Program-made: the position numbers and the translations under genes | Shown: piece by piece, positions 5,747 to 17,879 of the stretch | Layout: each line of letters opens with the position of its first letter | How positions within the stretch are numbered: position 1 is the stretch's first letter | The notes under the pieces: generated by a model | Database searches by the model: none | Seen by the model: the letters and a program-made list of their open reading frames with translations, nothing else | What the model was told of the DNA's origin: nothing | Source of the DNA: an uncultured Verrucomicrobiae bacterium | GTDB taxonomy: Bacteria; Verrucomicrobiota; Verrucomicrobiia; Chthoniobacterales; Chthoniobacteraceae | DNA: 64,000 nt | NCBI GenBank assembly: GCA_963769025.1 | Contig: CAVYKI010000012.1 | Span: 416,001 to 480,000, forward strand | Direction of reading: 5' to 3'

Positions 5747-7111
5747 ATGTCCCGCACTGTCGCAATCGTAGGCCGCCCGAATGTCGGCAAGTCCGCTCTT
5801 TTCAACCGCCTCGCCGGCAAAAAAATCGCGATCGTGCATGACCAACCCGGCGTCACGCGCGACCGCATCTCCGCGAAGTGCAAGCTGGGCCGCGCCCCGT
5901 TCACCATCTTCGACACTGGCGGCATCGGGGCGGATGTGGACATGTCCTTTACCGAGCAAGTCCGCACCGAGGCGGAAATCGCCATCGAGACGAGCGACGT
6001 GATCCTCTTCGTCGTGGACGGCCATGAAGGCCTCACGGGGGTGGACGACGATCTCGCCCGCAGGCTGCGGCGCGCGCGCAAGCCGATCATTTTGGTCGTG
6101 AACAAAATCGATCACGCGAAGCACGGGCCGAACGCGAACGAGTTCACCAAGCTCGGCTTCGATCGACTGCTCACCATCAGCGCCGAGCACGACCTCGGCA
6201 CGAAGCGGCTCGTCGAGGAAATCGAGAGCCTGCTCCCGCCGCCGGAGGAGGAAACCGAGTCCGGCGAAAAGAAGGAGCTGCCGCTGCGCATCGCGATCGT
6301 CGGCAGGCCGAATGTCGGCAAGTCCTCGCTCACCAACGCCATTCTCGGCGACGAGCGCACGCTCGTCTCGCCCATCAGCGGCACCACGCGCGACGCGGTC
6401 GACATCCTCTACGCGCTGGGCAAGCACGACTACATGCTCATCGACACCGCCGGCATCCGCCCGCGCGGGAAGCGCGACAACTCGGTGGAGATTTTCAGCG
6501 TCATGCGCAGCGAATCGAGCATCGGCCGCGCGGACCTCTGCTGCCTCGTCATCGACGCCACGGAAGGCGTGACCGCGCAGGACAAAAAAATCGCCGGCCT
6601 CATCCAGGAGGCGAAAAAACCGTGTGTCGTCGCGGTGAACAAGTGGGACCTCATCAAGGAAAAGACCGACGACAAGGAGAAGCTCAAGGCCGTGCTCGCG
6701 GGCATCGAGGCCGAGCTTTTCTTCATCAGCTACGCGCCGCTCGTGCTGCTCAGCGCGAAGACCGGCGAGGCGCTGGATCGGCTTTTCAAAATGATCGAGA
6801 AAGTGCGCACCGGTGCGAAACAGCGCATCACGACCGGGAAGCTGAACCGCATCATCGCCGAGGCCATGACCGCGCATCCGCCCGCAGCGCGCAGCGGCAA
6901 GCGGCTCAAGATCCTCTACGGCACGCAGCCCGAGCCCAAGCGCTTCTGCTCCATCTCCATCCCGGAGGTCGTCTTCTTCGCGAACGACGGAAGCCTGATC
7001 GACGACACCTACCACCGGTATCTCGAAAACCAGGTCCGCCAACTCGTGCCCTACGTCGGCCTGCCGATGAAGTTCCATTTCCGCAGCCGGGAAAAACGCG
7101 CGGGCAAATGA
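5747..7111 (+). CDS. der: Ribosome biogenesis GTPase Der (EngA)
   Basis: Two tandem GTPase domains (GRPNVGKS twice, DTGG/DTAG, NKID/NKWD) plus a KH-like tail. Confidence 0.97.
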   Translation: MSRTVAIVGRPNVGKSALFNRLAGKKIAIVHDQPGVTRDRISAKCKLGRAPFTIFDTGGIGADVDMSFTEQVRTEAEIAIETSDVILFVVDGHEGLTGVDDDLARRLRRARKPIILVVNKIDHAKHGPNANEFTKLGFDRLLTISAEHDLGTKRLVEEIESLLPPPEEETESGEKKELPLRIAIVGRPNVGKSSLTNAILGDERTLVSPISGTTRDAVDILYALGKHDYMLIDTAGIRPRGKRDNSVEIFSVMRSESSIGRADLCCLVIDATEGVTAQDKKIAGLIQEAKKPCVVAVNKWDLIKEKTDDKEKLKAVLAGIEAELFFISYAPLVLLSAKTGEALDRLFKMIEKVRTGAKQRITTGKLNRIIAEAMTAHPPAARSGKRLKILYGTQPEPKRFCSISIPEVVFFANDGSLIDDTYHRYLENQVRQLVPYVGLPMKFHFRSREKRAGK

Positions 7112-9643
7112 CCGACGCGCTCCTGAAGCTCTGCGGCCTCAGGGTGGAAAATGCGGCGCACGTGAGCGGCGCGGAGTTTGTCCTCCGCAACAAGCAGTGG
7201 CTCGGCTGGATCATCGGCATCGGCCTCGTGCTCGCGGTGCTCACGTGGGCTTCGTATCGGCGCGATGCGGCGGAGATGCTCAGCAAGGGAAAACGCCGCG
7301 TGCTCACGACGCTGCGCATCGTTCTCCTCGCGCTGCTCGGGCTCGTGCTGTTGCGGCCCGTCGTCGCATTCACCGTCGAGTCGGCGATCCGGCGCACACT
7401 GCTCACGCTCGTGGATACGAGCGGCAGCATGAAAATCCAGGACCCGCGCGTGGACTCTGCTGACCTCAAGCGCGCCGCCATCGCGAAGGGCATCCTCGAT
7501 CCGGGCAAGGGCCTCGACCAGCCACTCGACGCCACGCTCGCCGCAAATGTGAAGCTCGTCCCGCGCGTGGAAATCATGCGCGGCATGCTCGGCAACGAAC
7601 ATCTCCAGCTCTGGCCGCAGCTCGCGAAGGAACTCGATCTCGCCGCGTTCAGCTTCGGCGCGAACGCTCGGTGATGCCGGCGAGATCGGCGATTCCGCCG
7701 AATGGCTCGCGCACCTCGATCCCGTCGCCACGTCCACCGCCATCGGCGACGCCGTGCGCGACCTCATCCAGCGCAAGCGCGGCCAGCCGCTCGCGGGCAT
7801 CTTCCTCGTCACCGACGGCGCGAACAACCACGGCTCAGCGCCGCTCGACGCCGCGCGCCTCGCGAAGCAGGAGGGCATCCCGCTTTACATCTACGGCGTC
7901 GGCATCACGTCGCCGCGCGACATCATTGTCGGCAGCCTGCTCACGCAGGAGGTCGCGTTTGTAAAAGACGAATTGCCCGTGACCGTCCGCGTGCGCGGCC
8001 AGGGACTGAAAGGCGAGAGCGCGAAGCTCGTGGTGCGTCTCGTCCCCGTGAACTCGACCGGCGAAGGCGAGGTCGTCGCGACAAAGGAGATCACATTTGG
8101 TAGGACGCTTTCGCCGAAAGCGCCCACGCTTGAAAACGACACCTCCGGGAAAGACGGAGCGGCAAAACATGGGGCGGGTTCGGCGACCCCGCCCTACCTT
8201 GGCGACGATGAGGATCTCGTGGTCGCCGTGCCGTTCACGCCAAAGGCGACCGGCGACTTCGAGCTGCGCGCCAGCATCGCGCCGCGCGCCGACGAGGCGT
8301 CGAAGGACAACAACGCCGTCGCGCAACGGCTGCGCGTGATCGATTCCAAGGTGAAAATCCTCTACGTCGAGACCACGCCGCGCTGGGAATTCCGCTACCT
8401 GCAAAGCGTGCTCCTGCGCGACCGGCGCGTGGATTTGAAATGCGTGCTGCTCGAAGGCGACGAGAGCATCGCCGCGGGTGACGCGTCGCCATTCCTCGCG
8501 AAGGTGCCCGCGAAAAAGGACGACCTGTTCAAGTTCGACCTCATCATCATCGGCGACGTCGAGCCGCGGAATTTCACGCCCGAGCAGTTCGCCGCGTTCG
8601 AGGAATTCGTGCAGAAATTCGGCGGCTCGATGCTCTTCATCGCCGGCCCGCGCGCGAACCCCGCCGCGTATCGCACCACCACGCTGGAAAAGCTTTTGCC
8701 CGTCGAACTCGACCCCGCCGCCGCCACGCAGCAGCCCGCGCCTTCGCAGGGCGTCACCGTCGAACTCACCCCGCAAGGCCGCGCCAACCCGATGCTCAAG
8801 CTCGCCGCCACCGACGACGAGAGCGCCGCGATTTGGAAACGCTTCGGCAAACTCTACTCGGTCGCGCGCGTCCTCCGCGCCAAACCCGCCGCGCAAGTCC
8901 TCCTCGTGGACGCCGACCAATCCCGCGCGAATCGCCACGGCAAGCAGGTCCTCGCCGCCTTTCACCAATACGGCCTCGGCCAGGTGCTCTACATGGGCAC
9001 CGACAACACGTGGCGCTGGCGGCGCAACGCAGGCGATCAATTTTACCCGCTGCTCTGGGGTCAGATTGCGCAGAAACTCGGCCTGCACCACCTCCTCGGC
9101 GGCTCGAAGCGCACGCAGCTCACCGTGAATCGGCAGAACTACACCACCGGCGAGCGCGTCACCGTCTATGCACGCCTCTACGCGTCCGATTTTTCCCCCG
9201 TGAAAGAGCAGATCGTCGCCGCGGGCTACACCATTCGTGTGGCAGGCGCACCCGGCCCCGTGCGCGAAGTCCCGCTCCGCGCCGTGCCCGAACAGGCCGG
9301 CATGTATCGCGGCGATTTCGTCGCGCTCGAGCCGGGCGCGCACCAGTTCAGCGTGAAAAACGATCCCGCCACCGTGCTGGAGTTCAACGTCGCCGAGCCG
9401 AAATTCGAAACCGGCGAAACCGCGATGAACGAAGTCCTGCTCAGGCAAATGGCCGAAGCCAGCGGCGGCGCCTACTTCCGCGAAGAAACGCTCGCGCAAT
9501 TCCCCAAAGCCATCTCCGCCAAAGCCGAGCGAATCCAAGGCACCCTCGACGGCGAACTCTGGTCCTCCCCCCTCGCCTTCATCCTGCTGCTCACCGTCGC
9601 GACGATCGAGTGGGCGCTGCGGAAAAAGTGGCAGCTCAAGTGA
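7108..9643 (+). CDS. Membrane-anchored VWA / glutamine-amidotransferase-like domain protein (PVC type); frameshift near 7670
   Basis: N-terminal TMs, MIDAS-like DTSGSM, TDGANN, PRWEFRYL, TWRWR, C-terminal EWALRKK. The protein continues across two frames. Confidence 0.8.
8099..8200. repeat. GTAG-type REP doublet inserted in-frame in a CDS
   Basis: Left arm GGTAGGACGCTTTCGCCGAAAGCGCCC; right arm reverse-complemented GGTAGGGCGGGGTCGCCGAACCCGCCC. 100 bp plus duplicated TT = 102 bp. Confidence 0.85.
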
Positions 9644-9684
9644 GGCGCACGACTCGCGACGCGCTTGGTAATGGCTCCATTTGC

Positions 9685-9775
9685 ACCGCCAAGGCACCAA
9701 GACGCCGAGGTCGGAAAGTGGCAAGACAAGCCGCCCCGAGGTCCTGCGGCTTCCTTCCCTTGGCGCCTTGGCGGT
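9685..9775. repeat. Palindromic intergenic element, ACCGCCAAG family
   Basis: ACCGCCAAGGCACCAAG ... CTTGGCGCCTTGGCGGT inverted arms. Confidence 0.75.
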
Positions 9776-9839
9776 CTCTTCAAGCTGAGCCACTACCAAG
9801 TGCTTGCGTGCTTCGCGCGGAGCGCGTCGTATGCGGGGC

Positions 9840-10634
9840 ATGATCCGCCCCCTCGTTTTCCTGTGCGCCCTCCTTTTTGCAAACATCGCTGCTGCGCAGG
9901 AGGCGAAGCTGCCGCCGCGGGAAAAGTTCCATCTCTTCCTGCTCGTCGGACAGTCGAACATGGCGGGGCGTGGGACGGTGGAGGCTCAGGACAAGACGCC
10001 GCATCCGCGCGTGCTCATGCTGAACAAGGCGGAGACGTGGGTGCCCGCGGTCGATCCGCTGCACTTCGACAAGGCGGCTGCGGGCGTGGGGATCGGGAAG
10101 ACGTTCGCCACGCTCTACGCGGAGGCGCATCCGGGCATCACCGTGGGGCTGATTCCGTGCGCGGTCGGCGGGTCGCCGATTGATTCCTGGAGGCCGGGCG
10201 AATTTTACAAGCCGACGAACAGTCACCCGTGGGACGATGCGATTCGCCGCGCGCACGTGGCGCAGAAATCCGGCACGCTCACCGGCATCCTGTGGCATCA
10301 GGGCGAATCGGATTCCAACGAGAAGCTCGCGCCGGGCTACGAGGCGAAGCTGCACGATCTCATCGCGCGGATGCGCAAGGAACTCGAGGTGCCCGACGCG
10401 CCGTTCATCGTCGGGCAGATGGGGAAATTCGCCGAATCGCCTTGGAATGAAGCGAAGCTGCAGGTGGACAAGGCGCATCAGGATCTGCCGAAGAAGGTGC
10501 AGCGCACGGCATTCGCCAGCGCGGAGGGGCTGAAGCATCGCGGCGACAAGGTCCACTTCGACTCGCCGTCGTTCCGCGAGTTCGGAAAACGCTACTTCGC
10601 CGCATTCCAATCGCTGGCGAAGTCGGGACAGTGA
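9840..10634 (+). CDS. Sialate O-acetylesterase / CE6-like SGNH esterase (SASA domain), secreted
   Basis: Signal peptide, LLVGQSNMAGRG, PCAVGG, LWHQGESD, DKVHFD. Confidence 0.9.
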   Translation: MIRPLVFLCALLFANIAAAQEAKLPPREKFHLFLLVGQSNMAGRGTVEAQDKTPHPRVLMLNKAETWVPAVDPLHFDKAAAGVGIGKTFATLYAEAHPGITVGLIPCAVGGSPIDSWRPGEFYKPTNSHPWDDAIRRAHVAQKSGTLTGILWHQGESDSNEKLAPGYEAKLHDLIARMRKELEVPDAPFIVGQMGKFAESPWNEAKLQVDKAHQDLPKKVQRTAFASAEGLKHRGDKVHFDSPSFREFGKRYFAAFQSLAKSGQ

Positions 10635-11777: not shown

Positions 11778-11817
11778 AAAAAAAAGAGCCCGTTTCAGCT
11801 TTCGCTGAAACGGGCTC
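11778..11817 (-). terminator. Rho-independent terminator of the rRNA operon
   Basis: 14-bp stem GAGCCCGTTTCAGC / GCTGAAACGGGCTC followed by a T8 run on the minus strand. Confidence 0.92.
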
Positions 11818-11822
11818 GTAAC

Positions 11823-11938
<116 letters not shown>

Positions 11939-12125
11939 GACCGGATTTTCCGAATTAAATCCGGACCTCTAGCGATTAAAGTCCGAGCTGCCGGACATTT
12001 TCACGTCACTGTATTCCTAAAGAACGGCTGGTTCCCTGACATCTGCATACATGTAGTTTGTGCAACTTCGCACTGAGTTTTTTCAGATCGCAAGATCCTT
12101 CTTCCTCGCGAATGTGAGGAAAGAG

Positions 12126-14979
<2,854 letters not shown>

Positions 14980-15614: not shown

Positions 15615-17179
<1,565 letters not shown>

Positions 17180-17496
17180 AAGTTAGTGCTGAGGCAGCAA
17201 GCCCCAGCGTCTGGCCGTTTTGGCCCGCCGTTTTACGGGCAGGCCTCGGCACTTTTCTTAAAATCAAAAATTTGACGTGCAACGCACAATTCAATTTTTG
17301 CTGTATGGACTGTTTTGAGTTTGTGTCCGCCACCGCTTCCACGAGGGATGCGGCGACGGGCGACTCGAAACCAAACTGTCAAAAAACTTGCAGCGCTTGC
17401 GAGCCTGCCGGCAACCAGACTTTCGTCTGCGCCAGCCGCTCTCGCGAGCAACTGTCCCGCACCTTTCGGCGCGTCCCTTGTTTCAGCGGGAGGGAC

Positions 17497-17631
17497 ACCC
17501 TATTCAGGTCTTCGTCATCGTCAACAGCTTTTTGCAAATTTCTTTGCTCGCTGCAACTTTGCCGAAGACCGCTTTGGACGGCCTCCGCACTTGCGGGGCG
17601 GTGTAGATAGCGGGTTCGTTTTTTGGGTCAA
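17497..17631 (-). promoter_or_regulatory. Tandem sigma70-type rRNA promoters (P1/P2)
   Basis: TTGACG-16 bp-TAGGGT (17524-17497) and TTGACC-16 bp-TATCTA (17631-17604), each with an A-rich upstream tract. Confidence 0.6.
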
Positions 17632-17879
17632 CAATCTTTTTGAAAAAACTTTCGTCCCCCACAGTGAAACCCCTGCGCCACGAGTGAAAACAGCATGCCC
17701 GCAAAATTCGTTTCCCCTTGTGAGAGCACGTGCAGCACGGGACTGCCCCGCCCTCTCTTTCAGCCGATCAAGAGCGCCTCGTGCACGCCACAGATCGCTG
17801 CGGTAGCAGCGAGTGCCGACTGCGCTTACGTCGCCCTTCACTCTCGCCACGCCCGCCCATTCCCGCTACGCCAGTCGCC

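What the first reader, a model, noticed from the sequence alone, without database searches (positions are those of the whole stretch)
8099..8200. 34-codon REP doublet with a TT target duplication in the VWA protein
Seen: the element runs GGTAGG...CCTACC (8099-8198) with TT on both sides. Removing 102 bp restores ACA TTT GGC GAC, giving KEITF-GDDEDL. The insert encodes GRTLSPKAPTLENDTSGKDGAAKHGAGSATPPYL and uses codons atypical for the gene (AGG, CTT, GGA). Both arms share GGTAGG, a TCGCCGA core and CGCCC, but differ in stem bases (CTT/AAG versus GGG/ACC), so hairpin structure is kept rather than sequence. Inference: a precise, recent insertion into a loop of an Ig-like domain.
Basis: seen in the sequence. 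Interest (0 to 1): 0.75.

Follow-up and report, generated by a model that had tools for sequence, protein, structure and literature searches.

The report
In-frame REP doublet inside VWA gene
Two small palindromic DNA repeats, from a family of about 90 copies in this freshwater Verrucomicrobia genome, sit inside a membrane-protein gene without breaking its reading frame and add a floppy 34-residue loop; such events are already known, so this is a clean new example.

Summary
Window 8099-8198 is a tail-to-tail pair of GTAG-headed REP hairpins. The family has about 92 copies at 59 loci in this genome, against 1 in a shuffled control. With 2 more bases it makes a 102-bp in-frame gain that is missing from all 41 orthologous loci examined, including one 94% identical in DNA. 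Models place the 34 residues as a disordered loop between two strands of a CARDB/Ig-like sandwich.

The "TT target duplication" is not a family trait: 2 of 30 doublets have matching flanks, which is chance level. It is probably an assembly error, because 5 of 21 compared gene regions show frameshifts.

The kind is already published. Di Nocera et al. 2013 list intragenic GTAG REPs, most of them in the verrucomicrobium Opitutus terrae, including QueA, UvrA and a kinase. Here 8 other loci are also in frame, in QueA, UvrA, UvrD, Hsp70 and a kinase among others.

The likely transposase is a RAYT cassette with the same GGTAGGG ends. It lies in frame inside the only thrS found. This scan has noted such in-frame RAYT cassettes before, on other DNA. 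I found no paper describing them.

The parts
8099..8125 (+). Left REP: GTAG head (GGTAGG) followed by a stem of up to 10 bp with loop GCC; one A.C mismatch at stem position 7
8126..8171 (.). 46-nt spacer between the two REP tails; no other copy in the genome
8172..8198 (-). Right REP in inverted orientation with its head outward; one G.A mismatch in the stem
8099..8200 (+). Net 102-bp (34-codon) gain relative to all orthologues; its placement is ambiguous by 2 nt (8097-8198 to 8099-8200)
7108..7674 (+). N-terminal part of the host gene (predicted membrane-spanning stretch and the start of the VWA domain with DTSGS), ending at a TGA created by the frameshift
7660..7666 (+). Site of one extra base (GCGCGAAC here, GCGCAAC in the closest relative, G012) that shifts the frame by +1
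7662..9643 (+). Remainder of the host gene in the second frame: end of VWA, CARDB/Ig-like sandwich carrying the insert, GATase1-like alpha/beta domain, second beta-sandwich, C-terminal membrane helix

Best explanation
A non-autonomous tail-to-tail dimer of GTAG-headed REP hairpins (REPIN-like) inserted into the coding sequence of a membrane VWA protein in the lineage of this genome. Shown: the net gain is 102 bp, with no stop codon in the frame used, so the gene reads through and gains 34 residues (GRTLSPKAP...TPPYL). Predicted: these residues form a disordered surface loop between two strands of a CARDB/Ig-like sandwich. Inferred: the element is selfish DNA with no function of its own, and it survived because it kept the frame in a tolerant loop. 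Inferred: it was moved as single-stranded DNA by a REP-associated tyrosine (HUH/Y1) transposase, which makes no target duplication. The best candidate is the RAYT cassette inside thrS, whose inverted-repeat ends carry the same GGTAGGG head. Inferred: the upstream frameshift is an assembly error, so the gene is probably intact.
For: REP family: 100 positions score at least 18 of 21, against 1 in a shuffled genome. That makes 92 copies at 59 loci, 30 of them doublets of this orientation. Stems covary: 328 of 348 cells are paired against a shuffle mean of 228, though pairing was part of the selection. Insertion: orthologues in 16 congeners align to residues 1-116 and 149/150-629 only. The DNA alignment shows one 102-column gap. 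41 of 41 loci covering the site lack it. A contig of run X10 joins 8094 to 8201 across the site. Loop: residues 117-152 have pLDDT below 50 and no secondary structure, between strands 106-114 and 154-158; the domain model agrees. The best fold match is the CARDB domain 3idu_A, E 0.014, probability 1.00. Same behaviour elsewhere: 9 of 12 loci with coding signal on both sides on one strand keep the frame, in QueA, Hsp70, UvrA-like, UvrD and a kinase. Six use the same GGT-AGG frame. Published precedent: PMC3733652 (passages and supplement 3). RAYT: 4 matches to NF047646 in the genome. The thrS cassette has 61-nt inverted repeats, 98% complementary, ending in GGGTAGGG / CCCTACCC. G012 and G046 have no REP copies; G012 has no RAYT match and G046 has no RAYT in thrS. 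Frameshift as error: 5 of 21 gene regions (7 sites in 29 kb) are frameshifted relative to relatives. Every contig from other runs that crosses 7662-7663 lacks the extra base.
Against: The insertion is attested by this one assembly only. As assembled, the gene is broken upstream, so expression of the 34 residues is not shown. No copy of the doublet with the same spacer exists in the genome, so no donor is known and movement as one unit is inferred. The link to the thrS RAYT rests on a 7-8-nt shared head. Its flanks are long inverted repeats, not REP hairpins. G003 has the same cassette, with decayed flanks, and 0 strict REP copies. G014 has 25 REP copies but its RAYT sits in recG without GTAG ends. 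The structure models are of modest confidence (mean pLDDT 60 and 66).
Confidence: 0.8

Rival explanations
1. The host gene is a real pseudogene. The frameshift at about 7661 is genuine, and the REP doublet landed in, or drifted within, a dead gene; being in frame is a 1-in-3 coincidence.
For: The assembled sequence has an extra base that gives TGA at 7672-7674. Long open frames are cheap at 64% GC: the antisense frame 7835-9961 is open for 708 aa and has no Pfam hit.
Against: Frameshifts relative to relatives occur in 5 of 21 compared gene regions, three or more in one UvrA-like gene. That rate fits assembly indel errors better than decay. Genome completeness is 83% in only 13 contigs. GC3 stays at 0.78-0.91 downstream of the shift. 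The rest of the gene is 94% identical in DNA to G046 with no other gaps.
Confidence: 0.15
2. The insert has been co-opted. Either the hairpins act in the mRNA (stability, translational pausing), or the new loop gives the exposed Ig-like domain a new property.
For: REP doublets at the same sites in QueA and the UvrA-like gene persist across species (G000, G004, G014), with a compensatory stem change in QueA.
Against: This copy is unique to one genome, uses rare codons, is predicted disordered, and each hairpin already carries a mismatch. The host genes are unrelated to one another.
Confidence: 0.07
3. The doublet arose without a RAYT, or with a different one: template switching, gene conversion from another locus or strain, or mobilisation by one of the other Y1 transposases.
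For: The spacer is unique, and the spacers of all 30 doublets are unrelated. Three other Y1/RAYT genes exist. RAYT and REP presence do not match cleanly across species.
Against: The RAYT copies at C10:513349 and on C13 are flanked by arrays of a different palindrome. The 347-aa Y1 gene has no REPs within 4 kb, and its homologues occur in genomes without these REPs. Only the thrS cassette ends in GGTAGGG.
Confidence: 0.2
4. Assembly artefact: repeat-containing reads were placed wrongly in the gene.
For: Only this assembly shows the insertion, and the assembly carries indel errors.
Against: The junctions are exact to the base on both sides of a conserved codon pair. The spacer occurs nowhere else in the genome, so there is no source for a misjoin.
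Confidence: 0.04

Closest known systems
Intragenic GTAG REPs and REP dimers, above all in Opitutus terrae (Di Nocera, De Gregorio and Rocco 2013, PMC3733652; I read passages and supplement 3)
   Same: GTAG-headed hairpins, with dimers encoding 20-30 residues in frame inside known proteins. The phylum is the same. Some host genes are the same too: QueA (Oter_2037), the 1995-aa double UvrA (Oter_2709), a Ser/Thr kinase and a WD40 protein. Tail-to-tail dimers there also have variable spacers.
   Different: The REP consensus and encoded peptide differ (GRALSPKAP here; GTGVPPV, VAGVADPG and VGPALAAG there). The order and host gene (VWA protein) differ. Here the empty site is documented in many orthologues.
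REPIN-RAYT systems (Bertels and Rainey 2011, PMC3116915: listing and abstract only; structure of TnpA-REP, PMC3479197: listing only)
   Same: Two inverted REPs form the unit. A Y1/HUH RAYT is present in the genome. The copies are dispersed and mostly extragenic.
   Different: There is no conserved spacer and no second copy of this doublet. The candidate RAYT is not a free-standing gene but lies in frame inside thrS.
Rickettsia palindromic elements (RPE; as described in the text of PMC3733652; primary papers recalled, not read)
   Same: Palindromic repeats inserted in frame in genes that stay functional; they add surface peptide segments.
   Different: According to PMC3733652, RPEs carry a CGTC tag, not GTAG, and have no dedicated transposase. 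The phylum is different.
In-frame RAYT cassettes in housekeeping genes
   Same: The thrS cassette here has the same layout: inverted repeats, a RAYT with no start or stop of its own, and translation through the host frame.
   Different: That concerns the autonomous partner. The finding itself is the non-autonomous doublet.

Membership tests
GTAG-type REP | GTAG tetranucleotide at the 5' foot of the hairpin | tested here: met
   GGTAGG heads both arms and 60 of 60 strict copies by construction; the 27-nt consensus is GGTAGGGCGCTTTCGCCGAACGCGCCC
GTAG-type REP | 20-40-nt imperfect palindrome that folds as a stem-loop, with subfamilies differing by complementary stem bases | tested here: met
   Hairpins of -7.5 and -10.7 kcal/mol. 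Pairs 10-22, 11-21 and 12-20 each show 2-3 Watson-Crick types (selection included pairing)
GTAG-type REP | Many dispersed copies, singly and in inverted pairs, mostly outside genes | tested here: met
   92 copies at 59 loci against 1 in the shuffle; 50 of 59 loci are not in-frame intragenic
GTAG-type REP | A RAYT gene in the genome flanked by the same REPs (REPtron) | tested here: inconclusive
   4 RAYT-like genes. One has inverted repeats ending in GGTAGGG, but these are not REP hairpins. Another is flanked by a different REP family
GTAG-type REP | Binding and cleavage by the RAYT | not testable with these tools
   Needs biochemistry
REPIN | Two REPs in inverted orientation | tested here: met
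REPIN | The doublet replicates as a unit: several copies share the spacer | tested here: not met
   The spacer is unique; the 30 spacers are unrelated in sequence and length (4-104 nt)
MITE with target-site duplication | Direct duplication of a fixed length flanking each copy | tested here: not met
   2 of 30 doublets have equal flanking dinucleotides, about the chance expectation
Rickettsia palindromic elements | CGTC tag and RPE consensus | tested here: not met
   The head is GTAG; the CGTC tag is taken from PMC3733652
VWA-domain membrane protein (host gene) | Pfam VWA above its cut-off | tested here: met
   Intact orthologue: 26.3 bits against a cut-off of 23.8. In the window only a partial match, 16.8 bits, because of the frameshift. 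The DTSGS motif lies in the N-terminal frame

The most novel reading that the evidence does not exclude
The REP doublets and the RAYT cassette are one transposon family adapted to live inside reading frames. The autonomous copy (inverted repeats, RAYT, no start or stop of its own) is translated as part of the only threonyl-tRNA synthetase found. Its non-autonomous doublets, read mostly in the same GGT-AGG frame, colonise loops of QueA, UvrA, UvrD, Hsp70, a kinase and this VWA protein. This would be an intein-like refuge without protein splicing. This genome would be a case where both partners, and a datable new insertion with its empty site, are seen together.
Probability: 0.35. Interest if true: 0.75.

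Novelty: new member of a known kind. Interest (0 to 1): 0.45.

Why it matters
On its own this is a clean, well-dated example of a known process: REP dimers adding peptide loops to proteins. The empty site is preserved in dozens of relatives, which is rarer than the bare observation and is useful for working out how RAYT-type elements insert. The wider value lies in the genome. The candidate transposase is itself embedded in frame in an essential gene. About a thousand long proteins in public data carry the same domain inside ThrRS, AlaRS, RecG or MetH. I found no paper on this arrangement. The genome therefore offers a test bed for whether such cassettes are active and mobilise the doublets.

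Tried and rejected
1. Independent support from reads. The best run held 0.39 of the sampled words. In the four runs laid, no contig covers 8117-8197. They hold relatives, not this strain, so this says nothing about the insert.

2. Exact scans of metagenome contigs with a 31-nt piece of the spacer and with the left junction gave 0 matches each.

3. TT as a target duplication was rejected. No strong preference for the preceding dinucleotide either: of 92 copies, AA 14, CC 13, GA 8, TT 7.

4. A master or donor copy of the doublet: none found.

5. The 347-aa Y1 protein at C9:554685-555725 as the cognate RAYT. It has no REP within 4 kb. Its close homologues are in G011, G016, G022 and G007, which lack these REPs, and it is not found in G014 or G004, which have them.

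6. Folding the whole 122-nt region as DNA: z -1.49, not distinctive. Only the single arms stand out.

7. The empty site for the doublet in the UvrA linker: the fetched loci did not cover that junction.

8. An empty site for the thrS cassette: the site is hypervariable in relatives, so no boundary could be set.

9. C3:1057221 and C10:191049 are low-scoring REP-like matches inside a TPR gene and a PAP2 gene. I treat them as probable chance matches, not insertions.

10. The search of earlier findings for 'frameshift' in this genome returned nothing.

Full report
**Observation.** Window 8099-8198 reads GGTAGG...CCTACC with TT on each side. The left arm and the reverse complement of the right arm share the GGTAGG head, the TCGCCGA core and a CCC tail, and differ in complementary stem bases. 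Each arm folds alone as a hairpin with one internal mismatch: -7.5 and -10.7 kcal/mol, z -2.5 and -3.0. The whole 122-nt region is not distinctive (z -1.49). Of the 34 insert codons, 11 are rare in the host gene, against 23 of 595 host codons. GC3 is 0.65 against 0.86.

**A repeat family.**
- The window is contig C12:416001-480000 of a 5.34-Mb, 13-contig genome.
- I scored 15 conserved positions plus 6 stem pairs. 100 positions reach 18 of 21, against 1 in a block-shuffled genome; at score 17 the counts are 56 against 30.
- After removing double readings of the palindrome, there are 92 copies at 59 loci: 30 doublets with heads outward like this one, 3 with heads inward, and 26 singles.
- The unit is GGTAG followed by a 10-bp stem with loop GCC.
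- Stem positions covary. For example, pair 11-21 is GC 23, TA 17 and CG 14 among 58 distinct sequences. In all, 328 of 348 cells are paired against a shuffle mean of 228. Pairing was part of my selection, so this overstates the effect.
- This matches the published GTAG class of REPs.

**The insertion.**
- The frame 7754-9643 matches orthologues in congeners as two pieces, residues 1-116 and 149/150-629, which abut in the subject DNA.
- A DNA alignment with six congeners shows a single 102-column gap. The empty site is ATC-ACN-TT(C/T)-GGC-GAC.
- I gave 44 orthologous loci to tblastn. 41 cover the site and all 41 lack the 34 residues. The two collections overlap, so there are fewer distinct genomes: 27 named loci plus handles.
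- The nearest relative, G046, is 94% identical in DNA downstream and has the empty site.
- A contig of an unrelated public run also joins 8094 to 8201.
- The titles of the related records place the organism in Chthoniobacteraceae, Verrucomicrobiota, among freshwater MAGs.

**No target duplication.** With an empty site of ACATTTGGC, the 102 extra bases can be placed in three ways without any duplication, or as 100 bases plus a TT repeat. Across the family, only 2 of 30 doublets have the same dinucleotide on both sides, which is what chance gives. No preceding dinucleotide dominates. This fits a Y1/HUH mechanism, which by established knowledge of IS200/IS605 elements makes no duplication. It does not prove that mechanism.

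**The host gene.**
- Upstream, the gene starts at ATG 7108 in another frame. That frame carries a predicted membrane-spanning stretch and the DTSGS motif of a VWA domain, and it runs into TGA at 7672.
- Against four relatives, the window has one extra base near 7661. Contigs of three other runs that cross the place also lack it.
- The intact orthologue passes Pfam VWA: 26.3 bits against a cut-off of 23.8.
- I compared ORFs from relatives' loci with this genome at 75% identity or more. 5 of 21 gene regions (7 sites in 29 kb) are frameshifted here, with three or more in one UvrA-like gene.
- Completeness is only 83% for 13 contigs. I therefore read the shift as an assembly indel error (about 0.8), not decay.

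**Where the 34 residues sit.** Two AlphaFold models were made, one of the 629-aa frame (mean pLDDT 66) and one of a 166-aa domain (mean pLDDT 60). Both place the insert as a stretch without secondary structure and with pLDDT below 50. It lies between strands 106-114 and 154-158 of an all-beta domain. The best fold match is the CARDB domain 3idu_A (Foldseek E 0.014, probability 1.00, TM 0.54 on the target). The same entries appear weakly by sequence profile (E 0.08-0.11). An alpha/beta GATase1-like domain, a second sandwich and a C-terminal helix follow. "Loop of an Ig-like domain" is therefore supported at modest confidence.

**Not a lone case.**
- By a GC3/GC2 test, 12 of the 59 loci have coding signal on both sides on one strand. 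9 of these 12 keep the frame, where 4 are expected by chance. One of the 9 is a doubtful REP-like match.
- The hosts are an Hsp70, a Ser/Thr kinase, a UvrA-like protein (within it and in its linker), UvrD, QueA, a cytochrome c protein and this VWA protein. A tenth locus, in a WD40-PSCyt protein, came from the earlier open-frame screen only.
- Six of them read the REP as G-R-A-L-S-P-K-A-P. The third forward frame contains TAG.
- In QueA and the UvrA-like gene, the doublet is shared with G004 and G014, is decayed in G003 and G015, and is absent in G012. One compensatory stem change separates species in QueA.

**Already in print.** Di Nocera et al. 2013 (PMC3733652; passages and supplement 3 read) describe intragenic GTAG REPs. 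They report the highest number in the verrucomicrobium Opitutus terrae; supplement 3 mentions that species 70 times. Their list includes QueA, a 1995-aa UvrA, a kinase and a WD40 protein. They also note that tail-to-tail dimers have variable spacers. The finding is therefore a new member of a known kind.

**Which transposase.**
- The genome has four RAYT-like matches.
- Two identical copies, at C10:513349 and on C13, are flanked by arrays of a different palindrome.
- A 347-aa Y1 gene has no REPs nearby, and its distribution across species does not follow these REPs.
- The fourth lies in frame inside the only thrS found (849-aa frame, C10:13437-15983). It is flanked by 61-nt inverted repeats that are 98% complementary, and their outer ends read GGGTAGGG and CCCTACCC.
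- G003 has the same cassette with decayed flanks. G014 and G015 carry a related RAYT in frame in recG.
- Strict REP counts are 60 in G000, 25 in G014, 9 in G004 and 0 in G012, G003 and G046. The correlation is imperfect, so I give the assignment about 0.5.
- The RAYT segment matches 1059 long proteins at E of 1e-10 or less. Among the 120 listed are ThrRS, AlaRS, RecG and MetH hosts from Verrucomicrobiota.
- Four literature searches found no description. Quentin et al. 2018 state that they discarded unexpectedly long proteins.
- This scan has noted such cassettes before in other genomes.

**Verdict.** The element is real, precisely bounded and lineage-specific. It is most likely neutral selfish DNA tolerated in a disordered loop, and it is ordinary for this phylum. 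The surrounding genome is the more interesting object.

Noticed in passing
L097:397-2943 (-) = G000:C10:13437-15983, outside the window: The only thrS found in the genome carries, in frame, a roughly 205-residue RAYT cassette. The HUH motif (PDHVHFL) and the Tyr motif (YICNNP) are intact. It has no start or stop of its own. It is flanked by 61-nt inverted repeats, 98% complementary, that end in GGGTAGGG / CCCTACCC.
   Followed up: partly
L103:2347-2640, L100:1210-1530, L101:1147-1530 (thrS of G012, G014, G004): At the same thrS site, between MFPPM and YYLKAMNCP, three relatives hold unrelated inserts of 80-110 residues and lower GC, each different. The site looks like a hotspot for in-frame cargo.
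   Followed up: no
L092:430-3258 (-) and L095:160-3024 (+) (G014, G015): A RAYT about 51% identical to the thrS one lies in frame inside recG, between the helicase motifs. It is flanked by 48-72-nt inverted repeats (79-81% complementary) without GTAG ends.
   Followed up: partly
P0003-P0121: 1059 proteins of 318-2000 aa match the RAYT segment at E of 1e-10 or less. The listed hosts include ThrRS, AlaRS, RecG, MetH, a DNA methylase and an aminotransferase, mostly from Verrucomicrobiota MAGs. JGI names them as host protein plus 'RayT'.
   Followed up: no
L091 (G000:C10:511849-515253) and L094 (C13:34126-37530): Two identical copies of another RAYT, flanked by arrays of a different palindrome (core CTGCGGCAGCTCGCTGCCGCAG). 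This is a classical REPtron of a second REP family.
   Followed up: partly
G000: C12:423660, C3:46500, C4:39820, C9:37240, C9:978340/978580/979500: Frameshifts relative to relatives in 5 of 21 compared gene regions. The assembly probably carries many single-base indel errors, which matters for any gene call in this genome.
   Followed up: partly
L029 (G000 QueA), L032 (G004), L034 (G014); L025 and L074-L076 (UvrA-like): REP doublets at identical sites are shared across species. In QueA there is a compensatory stem change (GCGTCC/GGACGC against GCGCTC/GAGCGC) and an 18-nt spacer indel. They are decayed in G003 and G015 and absent from the closest relative, G012. This species pattern is unexplained.
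   Followed up: partly
G000:C3:92720-92885: An element of about 165 nt whose ends resemble the thrS cassette repeats (GGTAGGGTGGGCGTCCCGCC ... CGCTACCC) but which has no RAYT. It may be a miniature derivative of the cassette.
   Followed up: no
window 11779-12524 and 16290-17654: Several 1-2-nt indels relative to G046 within stretches that are 91-95% identical. I did not check whether these stretches are coding.
   Followed up: no
window 7835-9961 (-): A 708-aa open frame antisense to the host gene, with no Pfam match. It is a shadow frame of the high-GC coding strand, not a gene.
   Followed up: partly
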